NCBI GenBank assembly: GCA_030704615.1
Contig: CM060733.1
Location: forward strand, 49,042,001-49,106,000
From: Takakia lepidozioides
Lineage: Eukaryota > Plantae > Bryophyta
Length of the DNA: 64,000 nt
Direction: 5' to 3'
The notes under the pieces were generated by a model. It made no database searches, was not told where the DNA came from, and worked only from the letters and a program-made list of their open reading frames with translations. The position numbers were made by a program, and so were the translations under genes. Of this stretch, positions 29,474-62,972 are shown in pieces. The first letter of the stretch is position 1, and each line of letters begins with the position of its first letter.

Positions 29474-29599
29474 TACAGAGCTTGGTATGGTTTAGGGTGC
29501 TTAAAGATATGTGTGGGAAAACATCCAAATGCAGAGTTAGAACTGCAATAAAAAATGGTTTGATTTTAATACCAAATGGAGTACAGAATGGGCGTTCGC

Positions 29600-34645: not shown

Positions 34646-34658
34646 GAGGTTTACTATT

Positions 34659-34760
34659 TCATGAGCATAAACCATGAGCCATGAGCCATGAGCCATGAGC
34701 CGCATGAGCCGCATGAGCGGTGAGCCGAAGTCTAAGATACGCGGATTTCATGAGCGGACT
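34659..34760. repeat. Subterminal CATGAGC(C) repeats, left end of copy 1 (inverted counterpart at ~45624-45690)
   Basis: catgagc x ~8 at the left end; gctcatg x ~6 at the right end. Confidence 0.9.
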
Positions 34761-35503
34761 CCTCCAAATTTGGAAATGCGGCAGATTAAACAAGTATTAA
34801 AATAATAGTTTTTTATTTGACCTTGCCGTTTTTGGACGTTCCAGATCATGTAATGCGGCGAAGATATGTCGTCAGTAACAAGTCCGCTCATGGTTTTATA
34901 GATCCGCTCATGGAAATAAGTGACCGTGCAACGGGAAATCCAGTATACCACTGCAAAAGGACGTCGCATACTGGCCTGTATAGAGTATTCCGCGGTTTTA
35001 CATGCCTTAACATTGGAATGAAGCTGACCCTTTTGCCGCGATTGAACCAATGGAGTCTGCACCAATACAGTCTGCAGTACTTCACAATTCTGTCTTCTTC
35101 GGGTATTCGGCGGGAAAGGTTTGCAACTGAACTGGGAAATAAGGTGCCGCATTAGGGTTCGCACGTGCGAAATTTCGGAGCGGTTTGGTGTTGGCGAAGG
35201 CCGCCTCTACCAGTACCTACGACGATACTTGGAAATGCGGCGCCGCATTTCCTTGTCGGAGGTCGAATGAGGAAAGCAAGTTTTCGGAAAGCAGAAAAAC
35301 ATGAGCCCTCCAACATACAAAAACACATGCACGTGGAAACAAGTGAACGATATAGTAATATCTTAGTTCGAGCAAAACAGGTTACTGGTAGGCAAGACAT
35401 ATGTCGGACCTTTCTGTGGCCAGAGTCTGAGGTACTGGCAGCAGTACAGTTCTACTATCCGAAAAGGATGGGCGTACCATTGTATGGGGACCGCAAGCCA
35501 AGC

Positions 35504-37308: not shown

Positions 37309-37420
37309 GCAACCCAGCCACCAGTGAGAGCTCCATGCGATCGGGCTGCGCGCAGCTGATCGAGCACCGAACCCCCCATTTTGCTTCTGTAATTCTTAGA
37401 CTGAATGCTAGGAGACTTGA

Positions 37421-40400: not shown

Positions 40401-42362
40401 CGCCAAAACGAAGAAGCAGAAACAGCCTGTTCAGGAAGAGGGTGAGGAAGAGGACTTCGATGGAGACTTTGCAACCAGCCCACCCCCCCAAACGCAGGCT
40501 GCCTCCCCTGTGCCCACCGTTGTCACGAGAGGCACGAGAACTGGCTCGGCAAAGAAGACACTCTTCAACCCCCCAGGGGGGCACCCTTTCGAGCCGGTGG
40601 AAATGAAGAGGCCGAAAGTGGCTCCCGAAACAGTAGTCCAGTGTGTAAATGAGAGTTTCTTGGCGGCTTTGGATGGACGGGCAGCCAAGTTGGCATACAT
40701 GAAGACCATGGAGGGTCTGAAGGGCAGAGCACTGAAGAAGGCGACTGCCGAAGAGCCTTCCGACACCCCAGGATTTCAGAATATGGTCTCGTTCTTTGAG
40801 AGGGTGTGTGCAGACAAGGATTGTAGGAGGGGCGGAAATGCCACCGAGTGGTCTTGCGATATGATCATCTTGGATATTCCGGACGGAGAGCCTGTGGAAG
40901 AACTGCAAGCTTTGCCATCTTGGAACAGGTACTCGGAGGACTTTTGGAAGAAAGGATTCGGGCTTGCCCGCATGGTGTTGGACGACAGAGGCTGTGTGGT
41001 TGTCCTGGCGAGCAGAGGAAAAAACACTCAGACAGGAATTGCGAAGTGGACCCGCAAGAGCGCCGTCCCGATTCTGAAAAAGAAGTGGACGTGCATCAAC
41101 ACACTGGGCCTTCGGTCGGAAGGGAAGAAGGTGATTACGACACTGGCACTCGTCCATTCATTTGCTTGGGTGTTTTCAAATGCGGTGCCGCATTCGGTTT
41201 CTAATCGTTCCCCCCTGTGTATGCAGACGAAGCAGTTCGATGCATACTGCTTTGTGAAGGAGAACTCCACCTTTGCTTTCTGGAAGGAGGGAGGAAAGGT
41301 TGACCCGAACTGCGACCCCCTCGATTACGACGTTCTGTTCAACAACGTTCCCAAGGAACTTCTCCCTCATAGCCTCACTTCAACGGAACCCCTGCGGTAC
41401 TCACGGACTTGGAGCCCTGCCTTCATTCAGACAATTATGGAGACATGCACAGACGTGGAGGGCACAGTGCTCGACCTCATTTGTGGGACAGGTATGCAGA
41501 ATCTTGATCTATGTTGTTCTGCAAATTCTCGTTAGGATGTAGTTCGCAACATCTGAAGCGCCATGTGGTAGTGTGTGGATGGCATTGTAACAGGTGCCTC
41601 AATGTGGGCTGGGCGGTTTTCTGACCGGCACCTCTTTGCCTACGAGGAGGATTCATCCGTGTGGGGATCCCATCTGGAAGGGCTGCAACGGAATGTTAAG
41701 GCTCCCGACAGAGCGGAAGTCTCCTCGGATTCGTCGGAGTCCGTGGAAGACACAGTGGACATTGATGCGGAGGATAACCCGGAATACGAGTGAGTGCAAA
41801 CATTGTTAGTTTGCAAAGCCTTCTGGGTCATTTTTGTCAAACAAATTTCCGGACTGTGGTTCTCATTAGTCTCGTTGATGATTGTCATGTGCAGGATTGC
41901 AGGGTCCGGGTCGAAACATGTAGGGCCTACACTTCCTGCCAGGAAGAATGTCCCATTCTTTGCGAGGGCCGACTTCATGACGAGCCCGGTGAGGGACTAC
42001 TCCCTTCCTAGTTATGCAGCTAAACTCGCAAATACAGCGATTAGAAGAAGTGAGAATCCCAGTAAAGTAGAGCAGATTTTGGAAGGGCTAGGGAGGACAG
42101 AAGGATAAGGAAAGAGTTGGCAGCAGCTCAGACAGGTAGACGGGTACGAAAGTACATATGTGATTCAGCGGATGAGAGCGACGCAGACAGGGAGGAAGAC
42201 GACCCAACGGAGGTGAGATGGACAGTTCCGCAAGGGGAAGATGGGATTTTCGAAAGCCTGGCCAACGAGCAGTCCGCTGGAGATGAGAAAGGCACTGAGG
42301 GGGTGGAGGCGGAGCAGGACAGTCTAGAACAGGATGAGGATTCGGATGATTTTCAAGATTAA
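37421..42362 (+). pseudogene. Multi-exon gene: low-complexity N-terminus + ParB/Srx-like domain + helical region + N4/N6 DNA methyltransferase-like domain + acidic tail; several premature stops
   Basis: Approx. exons 37421-38676, 38789-38978, 39079-39363, 39417-39562, 39647-39863, 40011-41130, 41227-41491, 41594-41788, 41895-42362 with GT-AG borders. Motifs FFVWDGNHRLLAW, CDMIILDIPDG and GTVLDLICGTG|ASMWAGRFSDRHLFAYEED. Confidence 0.75.
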
Positions 42363-42498
42363 TAGAATTTTAATGAAGTCTCTGTAAATGTAAATTCTCT
42401 TCCAGAGTATATAAAGGAAATTCTTCCCGACATTCGTGACCCCTCTCCAGTGTGCATTCCAGCCACACAATCGCCCAAACCACGACGCTCCCAAAATC

Positions 42499-43290
42499 AG
42501 AAATGGGGCACCGCATTTCCAAAATTTTGGCAACTCTAAGAACCTCTTTTGGAAATGCGGCACCGCATTTCCAAAACAGGGGAGGGACTAAATTTTCCAT
42601 TTCAATGTTGGCATAGTAAAAAGTAATCGGCCGATTGGAAATGCGGTGCCGCATTTCCAAAATTTCCTTTGTCCACACGCCAGTTTTGGCCTCTCCCGCT
42701 CATTGCATGGATGCCACCATGCTTACAGAGGTCGAACAAGGAGGTCGAGATGGCGGAATTGGAAATGCGGTGCCGCATTTCCATATTGGGGATGGTCGTT
42801 GTTCGAACTGCAGGCCCATCAGCAAAAATTGGCACCGCATTCCATTGTAAAAAAAAAGTCGATGACGGACATGGAAATGCGGCGCCGCATTTCCAGAACG
42901 GACATCGCAATTTGTCCATTTGCAGACCCTCTCACGGAAATGTGGTAACGCATTCCATCGCGCTGGTCGGAAATGTCACACTTTTCGAAGTGTTGGACGG
43001 AAATGCGGCACCGCATTCCCTTGTCCAAAAAGAAGTTTCCATTGCCAAGCTGGAAATGCATCGCCGCATTTGCAATGCCAACCTCGTTGTCTGTCCAATT
43101 TATAGACCCGTGTTGGTATTTCGTGTACTTGGACGGAAATGATGCACCGCATTTCATTGTCCGACACTGAAATGCGGTTCATACATTTCCATGTCGGCAT
43201 GGAAATTCGGCACCGCATTTCCTTGTCCCACATGGAAATGCGGTGCCGCATTTCGATGCCAACATGGAAATGCGCCACCGCATTTCAATG
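42499..43290. repeat. Array of ~14 palindromes GGAAATGCGG(CG/CA/TG)CCGCATTTCC with mostly non-repetitive spacers
   Basis: Core hexamers start at 42507, 42559, 42645, 42769, 42831, 42881, 42944, 43007, 43060, 43143, 43176, 43209, 43242, 43274. Confidence 0.92.
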
Positions 43291-43543
43291 TCCGACATGG
43301 CGTTACTCTGGTATATTCTTGACACATGACTCACATACCGGTTACTCTGCTATATTCATCCGGACAGACACATTGTAGAAATGAGACATCAAATTGTAAA
43401 CAGTGGGCCAATTCCGAGAGTTATTCAACAGAATGAAACACAATCATACAGAAGTGAGGTACGATGGGTTTATTGATCGGACACGATGTCTCACATTTAC
43501 CAACTGCAGACAAAACTAAGCCCTTCCTCCTTCTACATGGGCT

Positions 43544-44122
43544 TCACCAAGTCGACGGAACTTCGATACCCCTCAAAACAAGCTCATCACTGCTGCGGCA
43601 CCTCGAGGTAAACTGCAATTCGGTCGTTCTGCTGCCCTTGCTGGAGCCGACGACAATGTCATGTCCATCAATGATACCACCATCATACATTGACAAGGTC
43701 ACTGTGGGCCTCATGTGCCCGTGCGATTCGTCTTCGCAACTCAGCCGAATGTCTCCATACACTGGAAGAGCGGAGTGATCTGCACGTATATAGTTTTCCC
43801 CGGTGCCGTCCTCCCTGGTCCACTGGCAGCAGTTCCAGCGCCAAAGCGAGGCCGTGCGTGATCTGTCCGGCATCCCTTTCCAGCTTGGTATATCGAGGTC
43901 AACAATTTTCAGGACCCACGGACCGCATTGACCCTCGCCCTCACCTCGCTCAAAGCGGTAATAGCCCTCCAGATACTCCATTGCGCGCAAAGACTCTTGC
44001 TTGATTCCAGCAGCGTCTGTGAAAACAGAGAGCCAGACAATGATGTCTCCTGATTCAGGTTTGAACATAGCATAATCGTGGCCATGATAAGGGCAGTCGG
44101 CTGGATTTCGGCGGCACGGCAT
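43544..44122 (-). CDS. Unknown element-encoded protein, 'RWNCCxWT' family paralog A (~192 aa from MPCRRN)
   Basis: Intact ORF, alignable end to end with 44678..45241 and over most of its length with 56561..57139. Confidence 0.75.
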   Translation of the reverse strand: MPCRRNPADCPYHGHDYAMFKPESGDIIVWLSVFTDAAGIKQESLRAMEYLEGYYRFERGEGEGQCGPWVLKIVDLDIPSWKGMPDRSRTASLWRWNCCQWTREDGTGENYIRADHSALPVYGDIRLSCEDESHGHMRPTVTLSMYDGGIIDGHDIVVGSSKGSRTTELQFTSRCRSSDELVLRGIEVPSTW

Positions 44123-44677
44123 CCTTGAAAAAGAGTAGCGGAGTACGCTCAATGACAGCAGCTCCCGGATGGAGGAGGAGCAGCGCGGTGGCTGGAAAAA
44201 GTTCAAGCTAACGCTGCAATTCCTCACAAACACTCCAGGGCACATTTAAATTTCCCCCTACAGGATCCTGGACCGATGAAGATTGGCTGCTTCATGAATG
44301 TAGCCGTTTCAGTTTCCTACCCTGCCATGCAAACTATGGGCACTCACTGCCAGGTGGGCCGATAGCCACTGGACACGACGAAGTCCATCCCCTCTTCGAT
44401 GTAAATGCGGCGCCGAATTTCCATCCGGGGGGATGGACTTCGGTGGCAGATCTCAAACTATAACTTGTTGATGAGAAAGATGTATGGGTTCATCCACCAC
44501 CGGCGTGATGAACACGTTCCACCTCCGTCGGTGGGTACGTGGGACCCAGATGCTCCATTATTGGAGGCCGGACTGCTCTTCCGCTTCGCATCATTTCCAA
44601 AATGTAAGGGCTTCGTAGCTGTCCGCAAGGTCATTGTCATCTGCATCCAAGTCGTCCTCAGGTCCTCCTTTGCAAGG

Positions 44678-45241
44678 ATGCCGTGCTTCCGGAACCGGGA
44701 TGACTGCCCATTTGGAGGCATCGATTATGCAATGTATTCGGCCACATCGGGAGACATTGTTATCTGGTACACAGATTACACAGAAGATACTGGTTCGATT
44801 GTGGAAACATTGGTGGCTTTTGAGTATATCGTAGGCCACTACGCCTTCGAGCGGGGTGACGATCTTGGTCTGAGGAGTCCGTGGCTCCTGCGCATCCTCG
44901 ATTCCGATTTTCCCAGCTACGACAGTCACCCATGCAGAAGAAGGTACACTGCTATGCTGTTGCGGTGGAACTGCTGCCACTGGACGTGGGTGGACTCCAT
45001 CGGAGAGACCTATTCTCCTCAAGGAGTGCGCTCCTCTTCTCCATTGTATGGGGACATTCGCATTGGTGTGGACGACGAAAACGTGAAGATTTCCATATTC
45101 GATGGTGGTATGATTGAAGGGCAGGACATTGTGGTGAACATCACTAGGGGCGGTACAACGGCTGCAATCGACTTTACATGGAGGAGCCCCATGACTCATG
45201 AGTTAGTTCTGAGAGCAGTCGAAGTCCCATTGACAACGTGA
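44678..45241 (+). CDS. Unknown element-encoded protein, 'RWNCCxWT' family paralog B (~187 aa from MPCFRN)
   Basis: Intact ORF, head-to-head with paralog A; shared DCP..DYAM...SGDI..W, RWNCC.WT, LYGDIR, DGG.I.G.DIVV, ELVLR..EVP. Confidence 0.75.
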   Translation: MPCFRNRDDCPFGGIDYAMYSATSGDIVIWYTDYTEDTGSIVETLVAFEYIVGHYAFERGDDLGLRSPWLLRILDSDFPSYDSHPCRRRYTAMLLRWNCCHWTWVDSIGETYSPQGVRSSSPLYGDIRIGVDDENVKISIFDGGMIEGQDIVVNITRGGTTAAIDFTWRSPMTHELVLRAVEVPLTT

Positions 45242-45704
45242 CTTGTATTCAGTAGGCACAGGGCTAAAGATTTGATTGCACAATCAGCACAGTAGACGTG
45301 CTTCAAATGCAATTCATGTGGATCAATAAAAACCTCATTGTGCCCTCTTTTTATTCTATTCTGTGTCCATCGTTCCGAGAATGCGTCATTGCTCATTTCG
45401 TTTGGGATTGGGAGTGTGGGTGGATTTTGCAAGTGGCTGGTAGGCTGAAATGGGCCCCCATTGTACAGAGCAGTACCACCCTACCATTCGCGAAACATTG
45501 CCTTTCAATATATAATTCTAAATAACATTGCCGAACCTCCTTCATCGGGAGGTCCTTCTCCCCCTATGACCGTGGCACCCTAAACCCTATTCCCGCGGAC
45601 ACTCATTTCCGGAAAATAGTGTTGCTCATGTTTTTTTCCACACTTACGACTCTGCTCATGGCTCATGCCGCTCATGGCTCATGGCTCATGAAATAGCAGC
45701 CCCC

Positions 45705-46050
45705 GTTGGGCTTCACCCCTTTGCGCATTATTTGCTCATAGGTCGCCAAAGCATTCCTACCACACCCATGTTTGGTAAATCCTGCCAACATTATATTCCA
45801 CATGATTAAAGATCGCTGAGGCATTATGTAGAAATCTTGGCGAGCATCCATGATGCTCCTGCACTTAACATACATGTTGACAAGGGTGTTGAGTAGAAAA
45901 AACATTTGGCATGAATCCACTTTGGATAATGTGAGTGTGCACCTGATTCCAGCTTCCAGACCTAGAGCCTTTGTCAGTCTGCCTGCCTCACAAAGCATCT
46001 TCACATGCCCCCACAGAAAAGGCATTGTGGACTCCCTCTCTTGATCCTCT
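45705..46050 (-). pseudogene. PLS-type PPR pseudogene, upstream half
   Basis: LLNTLVNMYVKCRSIMDARQDFYIMPQRSLIMWNIMLAGFTKHGCGRNALATYEQIMRKGVKPN; the KPN codons are the duplicated TSD. Confidence 0.85.
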
Positions 46051-46589
46051 TTCAGAAGTTGCGGTCATGGTTGAGGACGTGCCTGATTTTATCAACTGTG
46101 CCGCTGCAGCTATTGCCTTTAGTTGACCATCTACCCATTTAGGTTTCTTGCAGCTATTGATCCACATGGAATCACAGGTAATCTAGAGCTTGAAGTCCGG
46201 CCCTCTTGGATGAATCTGGACCCACACTCTATCCCTTCTCCTTCAGCTATCCATGCCTCTGCACAAATCATGCATTCATCTTTGCCCTTGCTGCTAGCAG
46301 CTGACAATGACAACCTAGGAAACACCCAATCACACTAGTTCCTATGCTGAGTTGCGTCTGCTACTCTCTCTCATCTAATAGGCATTCAACTTTTTGCCTC
46401 GGTTGTTCCACCATTCACTGGGGTCAACAAAGTATTCATTCCACACATTCTCCTCATCTCTGTGATCTATTTTGGATACTTTCCAGCTGCCACATCAGCA
46501 GTTACTTGTCATAGTCATTCCAAACCACCACAAATCCACCCAACAAGCTAACTTACAGAATTCAATATGTATCTCAGGGCCGAGTCTGA

Positions 46590-47932
46590 TGAGAGGGCAA
46601 AACAGGCTGAAATAGGTCGAAGAAGAAGGTGCCCTCACCACATTGTCCTTGACAATTCAATATGTAAATTCAGGGCCGAGTCTAATGAGAGGGAAAAACA
46701 GGCTGAAATAGGTCAAAGAAGAAGGCGCCCTCACCACATTCTCCAAGGCCTCCATACCACGCCCCTGCTGTGCACACCCTACAAGCATCGTGTTCCACGT
46801 GATGAAAGATCGTTGAGGCATTCTGTTGAACACTTGGTGAGCATCCATGATGCTCCAGCACATAACATACATGTTGACAAGGGTGTTGAGTAGAAAAATA
46901 TTTGGCGTGCACTTTGGATAATGTGAGTGTGCACCTGCTTTCTAGCTTCACTTGGCATTTCATCTTGATGCACTTATGCAAGAGATAAACATACGTATCT
47001 GAATCTGCTGAAATGCCTCCTTGGTTTAAAGTCAGTAGAGCCTCTTTCAGTCTGCCTGCCTCACAAAGCATCTTCACATGCCCATAAGTGCTAGAAGAGG
47101 CATTGTGGACTCCCTCTCTTGATCCTCTTCCAGAAGTTGTGGTCATGGTTGAGGTGCCTGACTTTATCAACTGTGCCACTGCAGCTGCTACCTTTGGCGA
47201 TGCAACCATGCACCTCTTTGCATCTGGTAATCTGACAAGCATTCACCTTGGTACAATTCCAGCTCTGAAGATGTCGCCATGTGGACCTCTTTCCCCTTTT
47301 CCAAAGGTGCCAGGGCAGTGTTCAGATTGACATTTGGTACAATTCCAGCTTTGATGATATCCCCATGCACCTCTTTGCCCTTCTCTAGGCCGGCTGCTAG
47401 GCTTGCACAAGCATTGCAAATGCACACAAACATGATGTGCTTCCATTGCTCATAGGTCTCCAAAAGCCTCCATTCCACATCCCTGCTGTGCATACCCTGC
47501 AAGCACATCATATCGCACTCCACGACACCACATGTCATTCAGGCATAGTGTCGAACACTCCCTTTGCATCCTAGATGCACCTACATGCTGCAAACATGTT
47601 CACTAGGGTATTGTTTAGAATGTCATCTGGTACAATTCTAGCTCTGAAGATGTTGCCATGCACATCTTTCCCCATTTCCAAAGCTGCCAGGGCAGTGTTC
47701 AGATTGACATTTGGCACAATTCTAGCTTTGATGATATCCCCATGCACCTCTTGCCCTTCTCCAGGGCTGCCAGGCTTGCACAAGCATTGCAAATGCACAC
47801 AAACATGATGTGCTTCCCCCATCATTTGCTCATAGGTCTCCAAAGCCTCCATCCCACGTCCCAGCCGTGCATACCATGCAAGCATCGCACTGCACGACAC
47901 CACATCTCGTTCAGCCATAGTGTCGAACAGAG
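46590..47932 (-). pseudogene. Cluster of frameshifted PPR pseudogene fragments with local duplications
   Basis: LCEAGRLKEAL...DTYVYLLHKC; MDAHQVFNRMPQRSFITWNTMLVG; CNACASLA.LEKGKEVHGDIIKAG repeated. Confidence 0.8.
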
Positions 47933-48228
47933 ATAGGGTTCTTATTCTCCTGTGCATCCAGTGAAATAGTTCTCATACGCACATTTGCCTCTTGCATAGG
48001 TTGCAGTTGCATTTCAGGACACCTCGCATACTTCTATTCTAGTTTCCTGTCTCTCAGGATCTCTCCTTTCAGGTTTGATTCACAGGATCTGAAAATTTTC
48101 CAGGGGTGCATAACTGGCCCCCCCCTAAAACTTGTTTGCCCGGATCGTGTTTATCTTGCACCTGGTGCATCCGCGTTGTACTGCTACACTTGTTTTGATG
48201 CTTTATGTGAACCCTAAACTTTCTTATA

Positions 48229-49929
48229 GTGTTAGCTGAAGTGGTGACTAGTTGGACAATCACAGCTGATGAGCAGGTGAGGGAAGTGAATGTGGGAACT
48301 AAAGAGGAACCGAGGATGGTGAAAGTAGGAGTTGATTTGGAGCCAGAATTCTTTGAAGAAGCTAAGAGCTTGTTCATCAAATACAGAGATGTATTTGCTT
48401 GGAACTATGAGGATCTAAAAGGGATACCACCTGAAGTCTGTCAGCATAAGATTGAATTGGAACCAGGGTCAGTACCAATCAAGCAGGCGAGGTACAGAAT
48501 GAATCCCAACTACGCACAGAAGGTTGGAGAAGAAATCAAGAAGTTGGCTGAGGCTAAGTTTATATACCCAATAGAGTATACAACTTGGTTGTCACCCATT
48601 GTTATAGTTCCCAAGAAGAATGGTAAACTAAGAGTATGTGTGAACTACAAGAAGCTGAATGCTTGTACGAAGAAAGATCCTTTCCCTTTGCCATTCACAG
48701 AAGCAGTATTGGACACTGTGGCAGGCCATGAGATGTACTCATTCATGGATGGCTTCAGTGGTTATAATCAAGTGCAAGTGGCAGAAGAAGATCAAGGAAA
48801 GACAGCTTTCATCACAGACTGGGGTGCTTATGCATACAAAGTCATGCCCTTTGGACTTTGTAATGCACCAGCAACCTTTCAGAGAGTAATAAGTGAATCT
48901 TTTCATGAGTATCTGGATGATTTCATGCAGGTGTTCTTGGATGATTTCAGTGTGTACAGCTCTAAGAATGAGCACTTGCATAAATTGGAGTTATGTCTGG
49001 CCAGATGCAGGATGAGAGGTCTGGGCCTGAATCCAGAGAAGTGTACATTCTGTGTGAACTCAGGGGTGCTCCTGGGACACATTGTGTGTAAGAAGGGACT
49101 TCTTGTGGATCCCAGGAAGACAGAGGCCATTAAAGTCTCTCCACCACCAATGAATGTTAAGAGTTTAAGGAGATTCCTTGGGCAAACCAGTTATTACAGA
49201 AGATTTGTCAAAAGGTATGCACAAATAGCAGCACCATTGAGCAAGCTTCTGAAGAAAGATGCAGTGTTTGCCTGGACAGCTGAATGTCAGCAGGCGTTTG
49301 AGGAACTTACACTGTCAGTAACAACTACACCTGTGCTGATTAACCTTCACTGGCATGTAGTATTTCATGTTCACTGCGATGCATCAGGAGAAGCGTTGGG
49401 AGCGGTGTTAGCCCAGAATGTTACAGGAAATATAGATTCACCTGTGTACTATGCTAGCAGGTTGATGAACAGTGCTGAAAGGAACTATAGCACAACTGAA
49501 AGAGAAGCACTGGCAATGATTTATGCAGTCAAGAAATTCAGGCATTACCTATTGGGAAGAAAGTTTATGTTTTATGTGGATCACCAGGCTCTGATATATC
49601 TGGTGAACAAACCTTTGATAAGTGGAAGGATAGCGAGGTGGTTAATAATCTTGCATGAATTTGAGTTCGAAGTTATTTACAAGCCTAGCCGTTTGCATCT
49701 TGTGGCAGATCATTTGTCACGACTAACAACAGGAGAGGCAGCTACAGGAGTGGACGATCAGTTACCTGATGCGAGTTTATTTGTAATGGAGGTGCAAGGA
49801 AGTGCAGATGAATGGTTAGATTGGCAGTGGCCAATCAGATACTACCTTACTCATGGTCAATGCCCACCTAGTTATGGTAAGGAGCAGAGGAAGAGAATCG
49901 CTATCAAAGCTTTACCTATACTATGGTAG
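48229..49929 (+). CDS. pol: Gypsy pol: reverse transcriptase + RNase H (frameshift into integrase)
   Basis: WLSPIVIVPKKNGKLRVC, MPFGLCNAPATFQR, FLDDF, HCDASG, ERNYSTTEREALA, VADHLSRL. Confidence 0.95.
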   Translation: MLAEVVTSWTITADEQVREVNVGTKEEPRMVKVGVDLEPEFFEEAKSLFIKYRDVFAWNYEDLKGIPPEVCQHKIELEPGSVPIKQARYRMNPNYAQKVGEEIKKLAEAKFIYPIEYTTWLSPIVIVPKKNGKLRVCVNYKKLNACTKKDPFPLPFTEAVLDTVAGHEMYSFMDGFSGYNQVQVAEEDQGKTAFITDWGAYAYKVMPFGLCNAPATFQRVISESFHEYLDDFMQVFLDDFSVYSSKNEHLHKLELCLARCRMRGLGLNPEKCTFCVNSGVLLGHIVCKKGLLVDPRKTEAIKVSPPPMNVKSLRRFLGQTSYYRRFVKRYAQIAAPLSKLLKKDAVFAWTAECQQAFEELTLSVTTTPVLINLHWHVVFHVHCDASGEALGAVLAQNVTGNIDSPVYYASRLMNSAERNYSTTEREALAMIYAVKKFRHYLLGRKFMFYVDHQALIYLVNKPLISGRIARWLIILHEFEFEVIYKPSRLHLVADHLSRLTTGEAATGVDDQLPDASLFVMEVQGSADEWLDWQWPIRYYLTHGQCPPSYGKEQRKRIAIKALPILW

Positions 49930-52900
49930 GAAGCAGAATGTATAAGCTAGGACCTGATGGAGTACTAAAACGATGCTTGTACCACCATGAAGTAAATAAA
50001 GTTTTGGAGGAAGTTCATAAAGGAGTGGCTGGAGGTCATTTTGGAGAAGAGACTACCAGTAGAAAGATACTACTCGCAGGTTACTGGTGGCCTACTTTAT
50101 TCAAAGATGTACACAAGTATTGTCAAAGTTGTGATGAATGTCAGAGGCTAGGACCTTTGCAGAGATCTGGAAGGATGGCCTTGCATCCTACAATGCCTAC
50201 GGAACCATTTCAGAAATGGGGACTAGACTTTGTTGGACCAATTAACCCACCAGCCAAGAATACACGGAACAGGTACATAATTACAGCAACTGATTATACT
50301 ACGAAGTGGGTGGAAGCTAAAGCTTTGAGGGACAACACAGCCAAGTCCACAGCAAGGTTCATGTATGAGAACATACTTACACGATTTGGCTGTCCCTTAG
50401 AATTTATCAGTGATCAGGGAAGTCACTTCACTAATGAGACCATTGAATTATTGACTAAAGAATTCATGATTGTGCATAAGAAGAGTACAACATATTACCC
50501 ACAGGGTAATGGACAGGCAGAGGCTACCAACAAAATACTATGTACTATCTTGGCTAAGATAGTCAATGCAAACAGAACGGATTGGGATATAAAGCTGTTG
50601 ACAGCTTTGTGGTCATATAGGACTTCATATAAAGTCACCACTAAGTATACACCATTCCAATTAGTTTATGGTATGGAAGCCTTACTTCCAGTGGAATTCC
50701 TGTTACCTACCATGAGAACGGAATGGGGAAAGAGAATGGAATTGCAAGATTCCATTAAGGTCAGGAAACAAGAATTATACCATGTGGAAGAAGTACATGC
50801 TGATGCAGCTGATAATATGACTAGAATTCAGATAAAGAGGAAGGAACAGTTTGATGAAGACAAGTTAAAAACTTTTAAGACGGGAGATTTGGTTCTATGG
50901 TTGCAGAAGAAAGGAAAGATTAAAGCTTCTAAGCTTAAATCACCATGGAAAAGACCTTATGTCATACAAAAGATGTATGATAACAACACCGTCATGTTAC
51001 AAACCATTAACAAAGAGATGCTGGGAAGAGTCAATGCTAATAAGTTGAAGGGGTACAGTGGTATCCATGACAAACCATTGCAGCATGATTTGCATGTTGA
51101 AATGCAAAAGCAGTCACGGGGTGCGCCAGTGTTATCAACGGAGTATGGAGCACTTGTCGCTAGGCCGAGCATATATGACCAGGGCGGGCAGAACAAGCGT
51201 GACACAGCCTATCACAGCCCATCAAGGCAAAACACAGCCTATCACAGCCCATCACGACGTGACACAACCTATCACAGCCCAGCACGGCGCAACACAGCCT
51301 ATCACAACCTACCACAGCGTGTCACAGCCTATCACAACTTACCACAGTGCATCACAGCCTATCACAGCGTACCACAGTATGACACAACCTGTCACAGCTC
51401 AACACAGCCTACTAGGGTTACACAATCCATAGAATCAGTGACAGGTGGACGCACAATAACTTCAGGAAAATGGCCGACGGAAGAAAGGACGGAAATCAGT
51501 TTAAAAATAGACACGTGGAAGTCAGGGCGCGACACACAGCTGAGAAGGAAGTGCAAGAACAGGTGTCATCAAGAAAGAGGACGAGAATGGCCGTCAAAGT
51601 ACCTACTTAGCGTGTCAATTCGGATGAATGGCGGGCCCATTAATGAATACAGAAAAGGGGTAACAGAACAAACGACAAGTACAGAAAAGCGAAATTCTTG
51701 TCACATGTGTTATCCTAGTGGACAGTCCAGCAAGGAAAGTCCACTAAAGAAAATTAAATCTAAAATCCAGTCACAGCGGTTACAGCCAATAGAAAACCAG
51801 AGAAGGGATCAAGAAATTGGAGGGAAATTAAGCGCAAGAGTCGGCGTCGTTCTAAGTAACGGGCGTCTCGACGGAACAAACCATCAATGCGATAGCTTTG
51901 AAGCTATGGAGGAACTAACAGACTATACACTCGCAATACTACTTACGCAGTGGCATAGGGACGAAAGAACAGAACGGATCTTTTATCTTGAGCGATGCTT
52001 GCAAGCCCCGCAGGCTTACAAGAAATTACCCATAGCTTTTTGTGGCAACCATACGTTTATGCTTTTTGCACTACAGGCATTTCTTCAATTGTTACAGCCA
52101 AAACATTTCTGTGGGTCTAGAATGAAGAGAGTGAGAGGAATGGAGGAAATCAGGGTGAAGAGCACCACAATTCTGCAGAAACAAACGATTGCTACCCCAC
52201 AGGCGATACAGATACTGAAGGACCTGAGATTGCAAGGATTGCAAAGCAAAGATTGGACATTGCACCATAGACAATACATGTTACAATTTTTACAGAACTT
52301 TGAGCCAAGGACAAGAGCAACAACGGTGAAGGGAGTTGAATTAGTAATTACTCCCCTATACCTACAACAATTGTTTCGATTACCAGCAGGCCAGGTGCAT
52401 GTGGAGGAGCACAGGGCAAGACTGCAAATAGGGGACTTATTCCAAGAAGGGAGTTTCTTTAAAACTCAGGGTTATGCTTGTACCAAGGCCGTGTACCCAG
52501 GGCTTAAGGAGGTAGGCCAGATATTGAACGTTCTGTTTGCCATGAAACTGAACCAACAGTATTTGAGCAGATCCTTCACAGAGGAAATACTCAAAGCCCT
52601 GAGAGGAGAAGAGGTAGACTGGGCGGACATAATGTACAACGCACTGGTAGAGGAGATGAAAAGATTACAGGGTACTGCCGCAAAGTCTCCTATCATAGTG
52701 TCTGGCCCAATCATTGCTCAAATAATTCTTGATTCTGGCATCCTTGATGCTCGAGAAAGAAAAGAGATGGGAGTGTTTGAGCCAGAAACCACTGCAATGG
52801 AAGAGCAAGGCTCTTCACACAGTGAGGGTGGACTGGCAGGGCAACCCGAGAATAAGAGACAGAGGTGGGGAAAGACTGTAGTGGAGGATCCACTGGCTTC

Positions 52901-53024
52901 ACGGAATCCGCATGATAATGTTTCCGAAGTTTTTGTGCAGGAAGGGGCACAGCAGCACAGAGAACTGCTATTACTAGAAGCAGGACCTTCAGAGAGGGAA
53001 GAGGAAGTTACTTCAGTATCATAG
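49923..53024 (+). CDS. Gypsy integrase (to ~51055) reading through a tandem repeat into an extra ORF (from ~51906)
   Basis: HHCC finger (H..VAGGHF...CDEC), WGLDFVGP, SDQGSHF, NGQAEATN, GPY/F-like WKRPY...VNANKLK; then MEELTDY...VDWADIMY...GPIIAQII. Confidence 0.85.
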   Translation: MVGSRMYKLGPDGVLKRCLYHHEVNKVLEEVHKGVAGGHFGEETTSRKILLAGYWWPTLFKDVHKYCQSCDECQRLGPLQRSGRMALHPTMPTEPFQKWGLDFVGPINPPAKNTRNRYIITATDYTTKWVEAKALRDNTAKSTARFMYENILTRFGCPLEFISDQGSHFTNETIELLTKEFMIVHKKSTTYYPQGNGQAEATNKILCTILAKIVNANRTDWDIKLLTALWSYRTSYKVTTKYTPFQLVYGMEALLPVEFLLPTMRTEWGKRMELQDSIKVRKQELYHVEEVHADAADNMTRIQIKRKEQFDEDKLKTFKTGDLVLWLQKKGKIKASKLKSPWKRPYVIQKMYDNNTVMLQTINKEMLGRVNANKLKGYSGIHDKPLQHDLHVEMQKQSRGAPVLSTEYGALVARPSIYDQGGQNKRDTAYHSPSRQNTAYHSPSRRDTTYHSPARRNTAYHNLPQRVTAYHNLPQCITAYHSVPQYDTTCHSSTQPTRVTQSIESVTGGRTITSGKWPTEERTEISLKIDTWKSGRDTQLRRKCKNRCHQERGREWPSKYLLSVSIRMNGGPINEYRKGVTEQTTSTEKRNSCHMCYPSGQSSKESPLKKIKSKIQSQRLQPIENQRRDQEIGGKLSARVGVVLSNGRLDGTNHQCDSFEAMEELTDYTLAILLTQWHRDERTERIFYLERCLQAPQAYKKLPIAFCGNHTFMLFALQAFLQLLQPKHFCGSRMKRVRGMEEIRVKSTTILQKQTIATPQAIQILKDLRLQGLQSKDWTLHHRQYMLQFLQNFEPRTRATTVKGVELVITPLYLQQLFRLPAGQVHVEEHRARLQIGDLFQEGSFFKTQGYACTKAVYPGLKEVGQILNVLFAMKLNQQYLSRSFTEEILKALRGEEVDWADIMYNALVEEMKRLQGTAAKSPIIVSGPIIAQIILDSGILDARERKEMGVFEPETTAMEEQGSSHSEGGLAGQPENKRQRWGKTVVEDPLASRNPHDNVSEVFVQEGAQQHRELLLLEAGPSEREEEVTSVS
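51198..51412 (+). repeat. 30-bp tandem repeat (~7 units) rich in CACAGCC
   Basis: acacagcctatcacagcccatca... repeats, encoding TAYHSPSRRD-like decapeptides. Confidence 0.9.
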
Positions 53025-53099
53025 CCATCACAGCCAGATGATCGGCTTGTCACAAGGTTACCACAAGTTGTCCATGCAGCTCAACCAGAAATAATTGAT

Positions 53100-55686
53100 T
53101 TGGAAAAAGAAGGGTTAGATATTCCAACTACAGAACAGATAGTGGCAGAAATTGAGAAGGGGGACCTTCTCTATGAATATTCTGGTCTGGTCAAGGAGAC
53201 AGAGATTCCAGAGGTGCAACAGTTGCCCAAGGGAAATCGTGAGGTGCATATAATACACACACCTGTGTCGGAGGTACCACAGGTAGAATGTCAAGACATT
53301 GCAGCACCGGTGATGGATGAAGTGGTTCAGGAAGAAAATTTGGTGGGACAATGGCCTGAGTGGTTCGTGAGACATCACACTGTTGAGGATCAGGGAGAAC
53401 AGCAGCAACCTCACCATGATGACCCTCAACAGGCAATGCTTATGAGTTCCATAGGCAGGACACTTAATTTGTTGGGGACTTATGTCAAATCCCATGTCCC
53501 AACTACCCAATTGACAGCCTTGAGAGAGGAACTCAGGAAGGAGTTTGAGGCTCGACTAGCCACTGAGTGTGCAAACAAAGTCGATGAAGAGGTCACTCTC
53601 AAGATGCAGCAAGACTTGGAGAATACAGAAGCGGCTTTGCAATTGGCCAAGGAACAATTGATTGAGGCAGGCCTCGCGCAAGACCAATCGCATGAGCAAC
53701 AGCTATACCAAATCCAGGTGAAGCATGAAAGCAAGTTGCAAGAAGTGAATGCACTATATACGGAGTTGCAGACAGTGCATGACAGGATGGTCATACAATG
53801 TGCTACACTCACAACTATGCTTGACCAATCTACAAAAGAAATAAACAGTCAAGCGGAAAAATGTACGAAAGCAGAGGAAGAGAATGTTGAGCAAATGAAA
53901 CTCATTGTCGATATGAAGAATACAATCTGTCGCAATGAGGATACTTTCAAGCAATACAGGCAGATTGAAGCTGATCAAGAGAGGCACATCCTGGAGTTGC
54001 AACAAAGGATCATGGCCAATATAAATGAAATCTCGGTCACTAACAAGGCTTGGAAGGAAGCCAATAATCTACTTGCTGCCTATGCGAATTTGGTTGAACC
54101 TCATGCAAAGCGCATGGAGGCTTTACAACAGCAAATAGATGTGTACAAACTAAGAGAGGAGCACACTCTCAAAGGAACCACAAACAATTTGGTGGATAAC
54201 CAACTTATGCAGGTCTGGTTAGCACAAGGGCCAGTGGAGGGCAAAGCACCACAAAAACTCACCCAAAGCGAGATGAATGAGCTCAGACTGCAAGTGCAGA
54301 ACATTGCCACAACTACTATAGACAATGTCTATAGTAGGATAGCGGAGTTACAGGAGGATGTAGACGAACTGCATACTCAAGTGGAGGACCTCACTTCAAA
54401 TATCGACAAAAGAGTCTATATACCTGTCCGTCTGCTGGACAGTTCTCCTCTATGGATATCAGTCTGTTGGCTTCGTATTTACATGCCAGAACTTTGGTTT
54501 TTCAGTCTTCTTCACAGGAGGTGCAGGAGATGCCAATGATACAGGAGCCAGTGCCACCAACACCACAACAAGTAGCTAACCCTGTTGTTACTACAACCAC
54601 ACCACAGCCACCACAGTCTGAGGTATGGGGCAATGCTGCTTTTAACCCACCTAAAACTCCAGCTGTGAGGGAGTACAGTAGGGCTATGATTATGCCCTTC
54701 AACCAAATTCCCATCATGTTGGATTTGGCTTGGAAAGAATGTAGTCCTCCGCAGTCATTGGCACATTACTACCAAATCATGCGCATTTGGCTGCCAGTGG
54801 CAACTAGGACTAAAGTTCTTCCGAACAATCGACCAATTGAGGATCATCACTTTGCACAATACTGGCATGAGGCAGGTACAATGTTGAGGGAATTAATTGC
54901 CTTCCAAGTTGTACATGGATTCATTTATACCAAGACCAAGGAGGTAGCAAGTATTGTCATGGGATGCGGGTTATACTACGCTGCTTGTTTTCTGGTACGT
55001 TATCACATTGAGCAGCAAAAGATGCAATCGCGCTTTCTGAGTTATTCCAGTGGGGATCATTGGTCTTACCTTCAGTGCCACCTCATATGTACCTATATGA
55101 GGCAAAAGTTATGATGCAAAAGGATTCTCAAATTCGTTCATGGTTTCATGCGGCCTGGAACAATTTGTCAACACAGAAATTCGGCATTGATGATATTTTC
55201 TATAAGGGACATGTGGCATGGAAATACTTGCACAATTCACAAGTCATTGGTACCCCACTCACCTGGACAGACAAGGAGCTCAGTGTCTTCACCAATTTTG
55301 CCATTCAGCGTTTACATCAAGTTTTAAAATATAAACTTCCAGACATGGTAGGACAACATTGTATGCCCCAGAGGATTCCACAAAAAGTTCGACAATTAAA
55401 ACACCTGAGAGGCGATGAGGATTCTGATACAACTGTTTCTTCAGCGGATTCTTTTGACATGGGAGAAGACTATTTAATTCAGATGGCAGAGAAGAAGCGA
55501 CGGGGATCTCCTATGCCTGAAAGGTTACCTCGATATCAGCCTCCAGAGGGACTCACTTATCCGGGTAGTGTTCAATCATCTCCGTCAACCAGTGACAGAC
55601 CTCGGGCTCGTACACACAGTCCGCCACGAAACTCTCAACGTCAGAAAGGTGCTCACTCACAAAGGTTTGCTAATCGCAATCAGTAA
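53100..55686 (+). pseudogene. Continuation of the Gypsy extra ORF (coiled coil + unknown domain), broken into 53100..54539, 54452..55114 and 55060..55686
   Basis: Long overlapping same-strand ORFs ending just before the PPT; heptad-rich E/Q/L segment. Confidence 0.7.
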
Positions 55687-55724
55687 ACCGTGAGGACACG
55701 GCTTTTTGAGAGGGGAAGGGGTAA

Positions 55725-56503
55725 TGTTAGAGGACTGTCTGGGACTTAGACACTTATACGGGATCTGTGGGGTACCCTTAATTTTTGCACAGACTGAGAC
55801 CAACAGGAGCCTTAGGGGTGACAGCAGCGCACTTTAGAGGGGGGTTACACAGCCCGTCACAGCCAACACAGCCCATCACAGCCAACATAGCCCGTCACAG
55901 CCGACACAGCCACACAGCCAGTCACAGCCCGACACAGCCAAACACAGTCGCACAGCCAGTCACAGCCCGTCACAGTTTCACACAGCCAGTCACAGCTTGA
56001 CACAGCTGTCACGACCATAGGGAACGGATAGCAGGACAGGGAACGACTGTGGAGAACAACACCTACGAATGGAACATGTTAGTTCACGGACGACGGTTAG
56101 TGAGGGAAACGGTTAGAACAACGGGTAGGAAGATAAAACTGGAAGCAAGGACTGAAAATGGGGATCATTCTTGGGCGCTTCTTGGGGAAGGGAACTTTGG
56201 ACATCACTGAGGGGAAATAAGGCAAAGAGCATATCTCTGAGCAGAAAGAGGAAGAGCACGGAATAGGAGGAGGATGATCTATGATGCTTAATGGAAGCAA
56301 GCAGTAGAATTATAATGTAGAGCAGATTAGAGACTCCAGGACTTTAGCCTGATACTTGATACATATTAATCTGATACACACTTCATACTCACACTGTGTA
56401 GAGAGATCTGAGTGAAGCTATGGAATGAATGGATGAGTTGATGGAATCCGATAGATTGATGAAGCAAACTGATACTTAATTATCAATAGTAAGGTAGCTA
56501 ACA
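55725..56503 (+). repeat. 3' LTR (779 bp) with internal CACAGCC repeats (55846-56010)
   Basis: Follows the PPT; TG...CA ends with 6-bp inverted termini tgttag/ctaaca. Confidence 0.85.
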
Positions 56504-56560
56504 TGAATGCGGGAAGGAAAACAAATAGGAAACACCCCCATGATACACTAGCTGTAGGTC

Positions 56561-57139
56561 ATGACTGATTGTTCTGAGCGGGCTGAGTACTTAGAGATTT
56601 CCAACTCTTCTATCTTGGAGTTTCCGCCTCGGATAGCGAAGGGATGGGTGAGTAAAAGCCGCGCGACAGTTTACAGGGACGATCCTCGACTTGTCCAGCT
56701 GCGAGCAATGGAGTTTCTTCCAGGATTGCACGATTCTCCTGGACCCCGGCTGGGGAGCAGGTGGTTCCTACGCATCATGAACCTGGACTTTCCGCATGAG
56801 TGGGAGCCGAACAGATCACGCACAGCGTTGCTGTATCGCTGGAATTGTTGCGAGTGGACGTATGATGAGTGCATAGGTGAAAACTTTACGCGTGGACGGA
56901 CTAGCTCGGAAAGTGGGGACATTCTCTTCAGTTATGAGGATGAGGAGGAGGGGAACACAGGGCCCACTGTGAAAATGTCCTTCTACCAAGGGGGCGCTAT
57001 TGATAAACACGACATCCTCGTTAGTTTCAACTGGGCGACAGAAACCACTGACATTTTGTTCAAATATAGGCACCCGGTCACTCAGGAGGTCCTTGAGAGG
57101 CCAATTATAGTTCCTTCTTCTTGGGCGAGGGGACCATAG
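56561..57139 (+). CDS. 'RWNCCxWT' family paralog C (192 aa)
   Basis: LRAMEFLPG, WFLRIMNLDFP, RSRTALLYRWNCCEWT, GDI, PTVKMSFYQGGAIDKHDILV match paralogs A and B. Confidence 0.75.
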   Translation: MTDCSERAEYLEISNSSILEFPPRIAKGWVSKSRATVYRDDPRLVQLRAMEFLPGLHDSPGPRLGSRWFLRIMNLDFPHEWEPNRSRTALLYRWNCCEWTYDECIGENFTRGRTSSESGDILFSYEDEEEGNTGPTVKMSFYQGGAIDKHDILVSFNWATETTDILFKYRHPVTQEVLERPIIVPSSWARGP

Positions 57140-57822: not shown

Positions 57823-58245
57823 TCAAGCAGTCCGACCAGTATCCTGCCGTAGGGCCTTGTGCAGCTCGTTGAAACTCAGTGTTGGAGCATGGATGAAGAC
57901 GTCCACTACGGATATGCAACTCATGCGCTTCAGAAAAATGTAATAAAGGTGTTTGCAGGGGACGTATGCTGCATTCTTCGATTCCATAACAAGGAAGTCC
58001 TTACAGTTGCAAGCTGGGTACTGTGAAACCGTGATTGCATACACGACACTGCGCGCAGCAGACCCGGCTGTTGATAACTGAAATATGCGCCCCATCCCGG
58101 GGTGAGGAACATCCCTGCAACCTTGCACTATGCAGGGCATTGCAAGAGCGTTGGCCATCCTAGTGTCATTCGCCTTTGTTGGTGACCGCCGTCTTTTCAG
58201 TTTCCCCCACCGATGGGTGGGCCAAGCTGCGGGGTCACCCACCGG
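57823..58245 (-). pseudogene. SWIM-domain C-terminal remnant of the copy-2 transposase
   Basis: HRWGK...TRMANAL...CNCKDF...PCKHLYYIFLKRM...FIHAPTLS aligns with the end of 35504..36919. Confidence 0.85.
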
Positions 58246-58367
58246 TATGCGGGGCGAAGAGCTTCTCGTACGTTACAAAAACGGACGACAACAGGAAGTT
58301 CACATCGGATATTTGGTGCCTGAATTGTAATGTACAACCACTTGGGCTACAATAAATCAGGCCTTCC

Positions 58368-59940
58368 CATGAATTTCGGCACCGAAATCTGGATGAACAT
58401 CTCTGTCATGTAACAGCTTTGGAAGCCAGTGGATGAATTCCGGCGACAGAAATCGTAATTTGTTCACCTCATAAAACTGACCAAGCACCCAACGGATGGA
58501 TTTCGGTGCCGAAATTCGGATGAACATCTTCTTCATCAAATTGTTTCTGCACTTAAGGGTTGAATTTGGATGCCAAAATACGGATGAATGTGTTCCTGAT
58601 TACAGTCGTGATTCACCACGTGTCCGGATATCGGTGCCGACATCCGAATGACAGTAATCCTGAATCGGCTGAATGGATGTATTTCGGCGCCGAAAATCAT
58701 TCTTCATCTCATTTTCCGACCCTAATTCTGCTGCCCTGCGGATGGATTTTGGTGCCGAAATTCATCTGAAGTCTTTTTTTTTTTTTTTTTTTCCTTAGCG
58801 ACAGATGAACTTCGGCGCCAAATCTCATCCAAGTACTCCCTTCTAATTTTCCTTTTTCTTCGCAAGTAATGAATTTCGGCGCCGAAATTCATCCGAAGTC
58901 CTCCCGAAAAAAAATAAAAAATCTTTGCGAGCAATGAATTCCGGCGCCGAAATTCAACCGACTTCATCCCTCCAAATTCTTTTCAGGGTTTGAGCGCCGG
59001 ATTTCGGCGCCGAAATTCATCCAATGCCCTCCCTCCAATATTTATTTTTCTTTGAAATGGATGAATTTCGGCGCCGAAATTCATCCTTACCGTCCGCAAT
59101 GAGTAACTCTAACATTACATTTTGTATGCGACGGATGAATTTCGGCGCCGAAATTCGTCCAAACCCGACACTTACTTTTTGCTTCTGGATGATATAATTT
59201 TCCGTAAATCGTTGGAAATACCCCGTTCCGACGAAGATAACAGGAATATTCTGCATTTAATGGAGAAATCGGCATATTGAACCCCTTCTGTCAAAATTAA
59301 TTGCATTCTAGCCGTTTTTTTCATTTGAAATCGACAGTATCCATTAAGTGGTCTTTTTCGCACGGGACGTTGCCGCACATAAAGTATAATTTCGGCGCCA
59401 AAATTATAGTTAAATGTCCAGAAATGGCAAGTCCAACAGGCATGGACAGCATCCGTCAGGGGCAATGATGGCGGCAAAGCTTAGCATGGTGCCGATTTAG
59501 TCTTCGCTCTGGATGAATTTTGGCGCCGAAATATGGATGATTTCACCTCGTCTACGCGCGGACGGAGATATTCGTAATGAATTTCGGCGCCGAAATATGG
59601 ATGAAATGTGCCCAAGTGCAGCCGTTTCCACTGTCCCGGAATTAATTCCGGCTCCGATATCCCACTGACAGGTTTGCTCATGACGGATGAGGACTTGGGA
59701 AGCGATGAATTGCGGCGCCGAAATTCGTAAGTTTGTGTATGAAAGCACTTGAATAGGATGAATTTCGGCGCCGAAATTCATCCGTCCGCTGATGAAACGT
59801 ACCGACCTGACTGTTGAATGTCATAGGCAGGGGATTTTCATGGCGGTTGGGTTTCATGATGTGCGGATATTTCATTCAATGCAGGCTGCTCCGAGAACAA
59901 CATCCGGTGAACGGAAGGTATTTCGGCGCCGCAATTCAGA
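58368..59940. repeat. Array of ~20 palindromes (GAT)GAATTTCGGCGCCGAAATTC(ATC) with unique spacers, period mostly 63-65 bp
   Basis: Core hexamers at 58378, 58442, 58505, 58569, 58633, 58686, 58751, 58814, 58878, 58943, 59006, 59070, 59144, 59394, 59522, 59586, 59650, 59714, 59767, 59925. Confidence 0.95.
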
Positions 59941-62810: not shown

Positions 62811-62972
62811 TCATTCCGCATCCTGGACCAGGAGAAACAGACTCTATTACTGAGGTAAGAGGACATAACACCGTCAATAAAGGCAGGAAAATTCCAATTC
62901 CGCGGATGCCCGCTCATGAGCTCATAGGCTCATAGGCTCATGGGCTCATGCGCTCATGAAATAGTAAACCTC

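What the first reader, a model, noticed from the sequence alone, without database searches (positions are those of the whole stretch)
43544..57139. Unrecognised ~190-aa protein family with three paralogs, all inside the elements
43544-44122(-), 44678-45241(+) and 56561-57139(+) share L.A(M/F)E(Y/F)..G, W.L(K/R)I...D(I/F)P, TA.L.RWNCC.WT, GE.(Y/F), GDI, S..(D/Q)GG.I...DI.V and a C-terminal VP. All three are stop-free despite strong divergence, whereas neighbouring genes are broken. I recognise no known domain. They are candidates for the specificity or anti-silencing factor.
Basis: partly seen in the sequence, partly recalled or inferred. Interest (0 to 1): 0.78.

Follow-up and report, generated by a model that had tools for sequence, protein, structure and literature searches.

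The report
Orphan accessory gene of plant transposon
A multi-copy plant DNA transposon carries a small extra gene, in two intact copies and one truncated copy here, that evolved under selection and matches no family or fold searched; its acidic, predicted all-beta protein likely helps the element by binding a protein such as its transposase rather than by reading DNA.

Summary
The family is real, but the description needs correcting. ORF1 (43544-44122, minus) and ORF2 (44678-45241, plus) are intact and lie head-to-head in an 11-kb Mutator-like element with inverted ends and a perfect 9-bp target duplication. ORF3 is not a whole gene: its ATG and first 36 codons are the end of a gypsy LTR, and only 56669-57139 belongs to the family, in a second subfamily element. 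dN/dS between copies is 0.29-0.49, every interval below 1. Public runs hold many diverged copies. No homolog or confident fold match was found; AlphaFold gives a moderate-confidence ten-strand all-beta model. The proteins are acidic (pI 4.6-5.2), which argues against a DNA-reading specificity factor; the element's ParB-like/methylase-like gene is the better candidate for its palindromes. Best reading: a lineage-restricted accessory protein that likely binds a protein partner, as maize MURB binds its transposase (untested, about 0.35). Anti-silencing through a host protein or RNA is the main rival. This scan already reported the element type on other DNA, but its look-ups returned nothing for this protein. 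Interest 0.4.

The parts
34637..34645 (.). Left 9-bp target-site duplication of element 1
   Evidence: Identical 9-mer at 34637 and 45705, its only two occurrences in the window
34646..34720 (+). Terminal inverted repeat A of element 1, followed by short CATGAG-type repeats
34646..45704 (.). Element 1: 11,059-bp Mutator-like DNA transposon, non-autonomous copy, inserted in a PPR gene fragment
   Evidence: TIRs and TSD; PPR reading on both flanks
35504..37395 (-). 3' part of transposase with SWIM finger; 5' part missing
   Evidence: SWIM E 0.062, below cut-off; 54% identical to element 2 piece; relatives in L073, L030
37421..42363 (+). Spliced ParB-like / DNA-methylase-like gene, several stops; limits approximate; domain names rest on recalled motifs and on a relative's weak Pfam hit
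   Evidence: relative P0009 N6_N4_Mtase E 0.0027, below cut-off
42499..43287 (.). Cluster of 22-bp palindromes of element 1
43544..44122 (-). ORF1, intact 192-aa family member
44401..44422 (.). Single palindrome 11 bp from the midpoint of the 555-bp gap between the ORF1 and ORF2 starts
44678..45241 (+). ORF2, intact 187-aa family member, old inverted duplicate of ORF1
   Evidence: downstream flanks still similar, 0 of 200 shuffles reached the score
45650..45704 (-). Terminal inverted repeat B of element 1
45705..45713 (.). Right 9-bp target-site duplication
56275..56668 (+). 3' LTR of a 5'-truncated gypsy element (48229-56668); supplies the false ATG and 36 codons of ORF3; start approximate
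   Evidence: RT, RNase H, integrase; boundary at 56668; purine tract then TG, and CA end
56669..57139 (+). ORF3 remnant, 156 codons; positional counterpart of ORF1 in element 2
57823..58242 (-). SWIM-finger transposase 3' fragment of element 2, tail-to-tail with ORF3
58369..59939 (.). Palindrome array of element 2, same 8-bp core as element 1, different arms
60929..61459 (+). ParB-like exon of element 2 (64% identical to element 1); methylase-like part deleted
62910..62972 (-). Terminal inverted repeat of element 2, same type as TIR A; other end not in the window

Best explanation
This is an accessory gene of a Mutator-like plant transposon, kept by purifying selection in two diverged subfamilies, whose small acidic, predicted all-beta protein likely works in trans by binding a protein partner, most likely the element's own transposase, to assist insertion as maize MURB does. 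Shown: the gene lies inside the elements, is under purifying selection, changes faster than the ParB-like gene, was duplicated head-to-head in one subfamily, and is net negative. Inferred: it is expressed from the internal two-way promoter; the palindrome in the middle of that promoter puts it under control of the ParB-like protein; it is soluble and folds as a ten-strand beta-sandwich; its partner is the transposase (whose N-terminal part is missing from both copies in this window).
For: dN/dS 0.49 (bootstrap 0.33-0.73), 0.30 (0.09-0.52) and 0.29 (0.10-0.49); neutral drift at half the ORF1-ORF2 distance leaves the frame open in 0.2% of 3000 simulations. All 5 indels listed among copies of 43300-45500 fall outside the two ORFs, p about 0.03; none of the 12 shown of 13 falls in the ORF3 remnant. 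dN ORF1-ORF3 0.48 (0.38-0.59) against 0.29 (0.23-0.37) for the ParB-like exon and 0.37 (0.29-0.47) for SWIM, the pattern reported for accessory against core TE proteins (PMC13547354, passages). Same position and inward direction relative to TIR A in both subfamilies although the transposase-ParB block is inverted. pI 4.6-5.2, no hydrophobic segment; net charge at or below zero in all but 3 of 20 30-residue windows. Two models agree on ten strands. Precedent: MURB binds the variable N-terminus of MURA (PMC12973397, passages) and is confined to one MULE subfamily (PMC10401008, passages).
Against: No partner was identified and no homology to MURB could be tested. A duplicated, still-diverging pair fits a changing host target at least as well as a one-to-one transposase cofactor. 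mudrB is driven from a TIR promoter, whereas these genes start from an internal region. Some copies lack ORF1 altogether (joint 43462-44230 in 2 X3 contigs and 1 X9 contig), and 0 of 80 related loci carry a detectable homolog, so related elements do without it; those loci are decayed and often short. Models are of low to moderate confidence (pLDDT 52 and 62) from three sequences.
Confidence: 0.35

Rival explanations
1. Counter-silencing factor that binds a host silencing protein, histone tail or small RNA, acting beside the ParB-like/methylase-like protein to keep the element active.
For: Fast evolution, lineage restriction and duplication are typical of conflict genes. CpG observed/expected is 0.77-0.88 in the two elements against 0.29-0.40 in the PPR flank, gypsy and left part of the window. 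Accessory TE proteins have more predicted host contacts than core ones (PMC13547354, passages). Conserved tryptophans W69, W96, W101.
Against: High CpG is also explained by recent insertion or by the ParB-like/methylase-like gene. The window's own copies show mostly deamination-type private changes (A>G and T>C dominate for 56020-58360). No reader or suppressor fold among the listed matches stood out.
Confidence: 0.25
2. Sequence-specific DNA-binding factor for the element's palindromes, a VANC-like specificity protein.
For: Palindrome arrays differ between the two subfamilies, as VANC targets do (PMC5735166, passages); one palindrome lies between the two genes.
Against: Net charge -7 to -12; no DUF1985, DUF287 or other Pfam match; the element already encodes a ParB-like protein, and ParB-like cargo beside inverted-repeat arrays is described in red algae (10.1101/2025.02.11.637652, passages).
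Confidence: 0.1
3. A small enzyme (for example acting on a modified base or protein) using the invariant polar residues around the R-W-N-C-C-x-W-T motif.
For: Invariant E49, D77, R87, R89, R95, N97, C98, C99, E109, D124, D155; the element already carries a DNA-modifying-type gene.
Against: With three sequences at 41-49% identity many columns are invariant by descent; no enzyme fold matched above Z 6.1.
Confidence: 0.12
4. A captured host gene fragment riding as a passenger (Pack-MULE type), with selection dating from its life as a host gene.
For: MULEs capture host genes (PMC6446971, passages); the host genome could not be searched and plant proteomes are thinly covered in the libraries used.
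Against: ORF1 and ORF2 arose by duplication inside the element and still show dN/dS 0.49; the gene holds the same place in two subfamilies whose synonymous sites are nearly saturated; no real homolog among 1.84 billion representatives.
Confidence: 0.1

Closest known systems
MURB / mudrB of maize MuDR (PMC12973397, PMC10401008; passages seen)
   Same: Small accessory gene confined to one lineage of Mutator-type elements; ORF3 is tail-to-tail with the transposase in element 2
   Different: No sequence link tested; promoter is internal and two-way, not in the TIR; duplicated; binding to transposase not shown here
VANC and VANB of Arabidopsis VANDAL elements (PMC5735166, PMC6446971; passages seen)
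   Same: Fast-evolving accessory genes in a MULE with 9-bp TSD and family-specific repeated motifs
   Different: No DUF1985/DUF287 match; acidic and predicted all-beta; a separate ParB-like gene is the better motif binder
PAG1-3 cassette of red-algal Plavaka elements (10.1101/2025.02.11.637652) and Ectocarpus Sola1-1_Ec32 ParB-methylase gene (PMC12477816); passages seen
   Same: DNA transposon with ParB-like and methylase-like cargo, inverted-repeat arrays, and (PAG1) an additional gene of unknown function
   Different: Different transposon superfamily and host; homology of this family to PAG1 was not testable
FAIM N-terminal domain (3mx7_A)
   Same: Best structural neighbour of the ORF2 model: Z 5.5, rmsd 3.0, 85 of 90 residues aligned
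   Different: Z is within the range common for unrelated beta folds, 7% identity, and it was not among the 50 rows listed for the ORF1 model

Membership tests
Mutator-like element (host element) | 8-11 bp target-site duplication | tested here: met
   Perfect 9-bp duplication at 34637 and 45705; range from PMC6446971
Mutator-like element (host element) | Terminal inverted repeats | tested here: met
   Matching ends at 34646 and 45704, imperfect and short, and a third at 62972
Mutator-like element (host element) | MULE DDE transposase domain | tested here: inconclusive
   5' part missing in both copies; SWIM E 0.062 only, no MULE Pfam hit; C-x-F-H-W and following motifs look MULE-like by recall; related pieces in L073 and L030 are decayed
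Functional TE accessory gene | Located between the element's ends | tested here: met
   ORF1, ORF2; ORF3 linked to element 2 by X6 contigs, far end of element 2 absent
Functional TE accessory gene | Purifying selection | tested here: met
   dN/dS 0.29-0.49, at most 1 of 1000 bootstraps reached 1
Functional TE accessory gene | Expression | tested here: inconclusive
   No run on record as RNA holds the stretch; see Tried and rejected
VANC anti-silencing proteins | DUF1985 / DUF287 domains | tested here: not met
   0 Pfam families at E up to 1 for 3 of 3 proteins; domains named in PMC5735166
VANC anti-silencing proteins | Binds element motifs and causes sequence-specific demethylation | not testable with these tools
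   Needs EMSA and methylome data; charge argues against DNA binding
MURB | Sequence homology to MURB | not tested
   No MURB sequence came from any tool; the protein searches returned no homolog
MURB | Binds transposase N-terminus; needed for insertion | not testable with these tools
   Transposase N-terminus is absent from the window
Tudor/Agenet, BAH or PUA-like reader domains (resemblance recalled) | Profile or fold match | tested here: inconclusive
   No Pfam or PDB-sequence match for whole proteins or fragments; low-confidence models limit the fold searches
Pack-MULE captured host gene | Host homolog outside elements | not testable with these tools
   No host genome held

The most novel reading that the evidence does not exclude
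The family is a transposon-encoded counter-silencing protein with an undescribed beta-sandwich fold that acts as an acidic decoy for a host chromatin or small-RNA factor, switched on by the element's own ParB-like protein through the palindrome in its two-way promoter, making a three-part self-protection system (palindromes, ParB-methylase, decoy) whose decoy is diversifying by duplication.
Probability: 0.15. Interest if true: 0.75.

Novelty: new variant of a known kind. Interest (0 to 1): 0.4.

Why it matters
Accessory proteins are thought to decide where and when plant transposons jump and how they evade silencing, yet few have a known mechanism (MURB, VANC). This is a compact, intron-free, soluble candidate with no detected relative and no assigned fold, in a transposon that also carries a bacterial-type ParB/methylase-like gene. 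It is easy to express and test. Orphan cargo is common, though: only 52.3% of non-transposase proteins of active plant TIR elements had an identifiable domain (PMC12973397, passage), so without a function the finding is of moderate interest.

Tried and rejected
Homolog searches: 0 of 1010 candidates; 1 hit among 1,835,955,588 representatives, a 546-aa tandem-repeat protein matching profile 57-97 six times, rejected as spurious; 0 of 19 shorter proteins; 0 of 516 metagenome, 0 of 50 viral and 0 of 89 prokaryote-genome stretches; none in phages or plasmids; ESM Atlas best 0.80 for ORF1 and no usable hit for the other two; PDB sequences best E 0.64; PHROG best E 0.16; one of 8 fragments gave an Ig match at E 0.1, below cut-off. 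80 loci around ParB-like relatives (the best 80 of 189 matches, 738,839 bases): best domain E 4.4, near the reversed control, and no conserved unknown ORF cluster stood out. Searches used alignment A1, whose third row still held the 36 LTR-derived residues. Fold searches: no Foldseek match at E 0.001 in PDB or BFVD; VIA best Z 6.1 (levivirus coat, rmsd 4.7, 66 aligned) and 5.5 (FAIM), both treated as common beta arrangements. Tudor/Agenet, BAH and PUA-like resemblances, recalled by eye, were not among listed rows. Internal two-fold repeat: not supported, p 0.34-0.99. ORF1+ORF2 complex prediction: no answer, score 0.00, alignments not used. Expression: no RNA holder listed; two runs guessed to be RNA had no contig on 56731-57520; neither is evidence. 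Polymorphisms among copies: of the 40 of 108 rows shown, 17 fell in ORF1/ORF2 (8 synonymous, 9 not), too few and too selected to use. ParB-like and SWIM relatives in viral contigs: none. Relative-rate test of ORF1 against ORF2: not significant, 19 against 13 sites, p 0.38. Literature searches showed no paper on this family; a word search cannot find an unnamed family, and no supplements were read.
Full report
Setting. The window is plant nuclear DNA: PPR fragments, an ELO-type and a DUF3475 gene piece, LINE and gypsy remnants. No whole genome is held.

Observation. The three frames exist as described and align at 49% and 44% identity to ORF1, with scores of 218-458 against at most 51 for shuffles. 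A profile search of all six frames finds no fourth copy.

The elements. Element 1 runs from 34646 to 45704. Its ends are inverted repeats, and the same 9-mer lies outside both ends and nowhere else in the window. The two flanks read as parts of a PPR motif. A 9-bp duplication, TIRs and a SWIM finger fit a Mutator-like element (PMC6446971, passages), but the catalytic domain is missing and the SWIM match is weak, so the label is likely, not proven. Inside lie the 3' part of a transposase (minus), a spliced ParB-like/methylase-like gene (plus) with about four stops, a cluster of 22-bp palindromes, then ORF1 and ORF2 head-to-head. One palindrome sits 11 bp from the midpoint of the 555-bp gap between their starts. 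Element 2 ends at 62972 with the same TIR type as element 1's left end; it holds a ParB-like exon (64% identical), its own palindrome type and a SWIM fragment (54%). Read from that TIR, its transposase-ParB block is inverted relative to element 1, and ORF3 holds the place and direction of ORF1. ParB-like relatives occur in Selaginella and Adiantum proteins; the Adiantum one has a weak N6_N4_Mtase hit. The domain names for the window's gene rest on that and on recalled motifs.

Correction to ORF3. Laying public contigs on 56020-58360 shows a boundary at 56668. Contigs of all four runs leave the window there (63, 3, 4, 4), summed depth falls from 2.4 million to 0.11 million in X3 and from 3071 to 56 in X6 between nearby bins, and one X6 contig fits from 56669 on with 98 other letters before it. 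The window reads a purine tract, TG at about 56275 and CA at 56668, downstream of gypsy RT, RNase H and integrase. So the ATG and first 36 codons of ORF3 are LTR, and the gene's true start was lost with the far end of element 2. X6 contigs tile 56669-57082, 57109-57478, 57449-57730 and 57701-58269 at depth 40-60, tying the remnant to the SWIM fragment; successive overlaps are 30 bases and 57083-57108 is not spanned by a listed piece.

Selection and copies. On the corrected alignment, dN/dS is 0.49 (0.33-0.73) for ORF1-ORF2, 0.30 and 0.29 against ORF3; neutral drift at half the ORF1-ORF2 distance keeps the frame open in 0.2% of 3000 runs. dN to the other subfamily is 0.48, against 0.29 for the ParB-like exon and 0.37 for SWIM. 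6470 contigs of run X3 fit 43300-45500 at a range of identities, and runs of only 2-3 million letters hold 70-75% of its words, as expected of a many-copy repeat; depth is not a copy number. All 5 listed indels fall outside the ORFs (p about 0.03). Against a vital role in every copy: a joint that skips ORF1 occurs in 2 X3 contigs and 1 X9 contig. Lack of stops in this one copy means little, since its neighbours carry only a few.

What the protein is. No library gave a homolog (details and counts under Tried and rejected), nor did 80 loci around ParB-like relatives, which are decayed and often short. These libraries cover plant transposon proteins thinly, so the result shows restriction, not absolute novelty. 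AlphaFold on three sequences gave pLDDT 52 for ORF1 and 62 (pTM 0.62) for ORF2, both with ten strands and no helix of four or more residues. Fold searches gave nothing at E 0.001; the best VIA scores were Z 6.1 and 5.5, within the range of common beta arrangements. The proteins have pI 4.6-5.2, net charge -7 to -12 and no hydrophobic segment.

How it likely works. An acidic soluble beta protein is a poor DNA reader, and the element has a better one: ParB-like cargo beside inverted-repeat arrays is described in red-algal Plavaka elements (10.1101/2025.02.11.637652, passages) and ParB-methylase cargo in Ectocarpus (PMC12477816, passages). VANC, the known specificity factor, has DUF1985/DUF287 domains (PMC5735166, passages), absent here. 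The nearest precedent for a small, lineage-restricted Mutator accessory gene is MURB, which binds the variable N-terminus of its transposase and is needed for insertion (PMC12973397; PMC10401008; passages). I therefore infer a protein-binding cofactor made in trans, likely of the transposase (0.35). A counter-silencing role through a host protein or small RNA (0.25) fits the duplication, the fast change and the elements' CpG ratio of 0.77-0.88 against 0.29-0.40 around them, but recent insertion explains that ratio as well. Enzyme (0.12), DNA specificity factor (0.10) and passenger host fragment (0.10) are less likely. Expression, partner and function are all untested.

Known and new. The element type was reported earlier in this scan on other DNA (unchecked notes). 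Look-ups by sequence for ORF1, ORF2 and 33100-45099 returned nothing. Six literature searches showed no paper on this family; PMC4738411 (passages) covers eukaryotic ParB-linked adenine methylases and PMC13547354 (passages) the general traits of accessory TE proteins. No supplements were read; supplementary TE catalogues could hold related sequences. Verdict: a real orphan accessory family, two intact genes and one truncated, a new variant of a known kind, interest 0.4.

Noticed in passing
window 34184-34645, 45705-47957, 62973-63201: All three element ends in the window abut PPR gene fragments, hinting at insertion preference for, or local duplication with, PPR sequence.
   Followed up: partly
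window 35231-44422 and 57687-59939: The two subfamilies carry palindrome arrays with the same 8-bp CG-rich core but different arms, as if site and binding protein diverged together.
   Followed up: partly
window 44837: Contigs of runs X8 and X9 (organisms B and C) follow ORF2 to 44837, then leave it and end in a run of A: a truncated variant or a polyadenylated form.
   Followed up: no
window 43463-44229: Some copies lack exactly this 767-bp block, which holds all of ORF1.
   Followed up: partly
window 51700-55686: The gypsy element carries long extra frames after integrase (to 53024; 53100-54539; 54452-55114; 55060-55686) with no significant Pfam match.
   Followed up: no
window 51166-51418 and 55847-56016: Two related 10-bp tandem arrays inside the gypsy element, one within the long ORF.
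   Followed up: no
window 40848-41490: The methylase-like part has a D-I-P-D motif and a later D-L-I-C-G-T-G motif, in the order of beta-class amino methylases (recalled); no Pfam hit for the window's own piece.
   Followed up: partly
window 29463-30771: Decayed Harbinger-type transposase remnant (DDE_Tnp_4 E 0.00015).
   Followed up: no
window 8529-9748 and 31052-32504; 13702-13978: Dispersed copies of a LINE-like repeat in opposite orientation, 79-88% alike.
   Followed up: no
window 19489-20535 and 21697-22514: AT-rich degenerate tandem arrays, the second bracketed region at 26% GC.
   Followed up: no
window 2524-2641: 51-bp hairpin, 90% complementary, just upstream of an ELO-type gene piece.
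   Followed up: no
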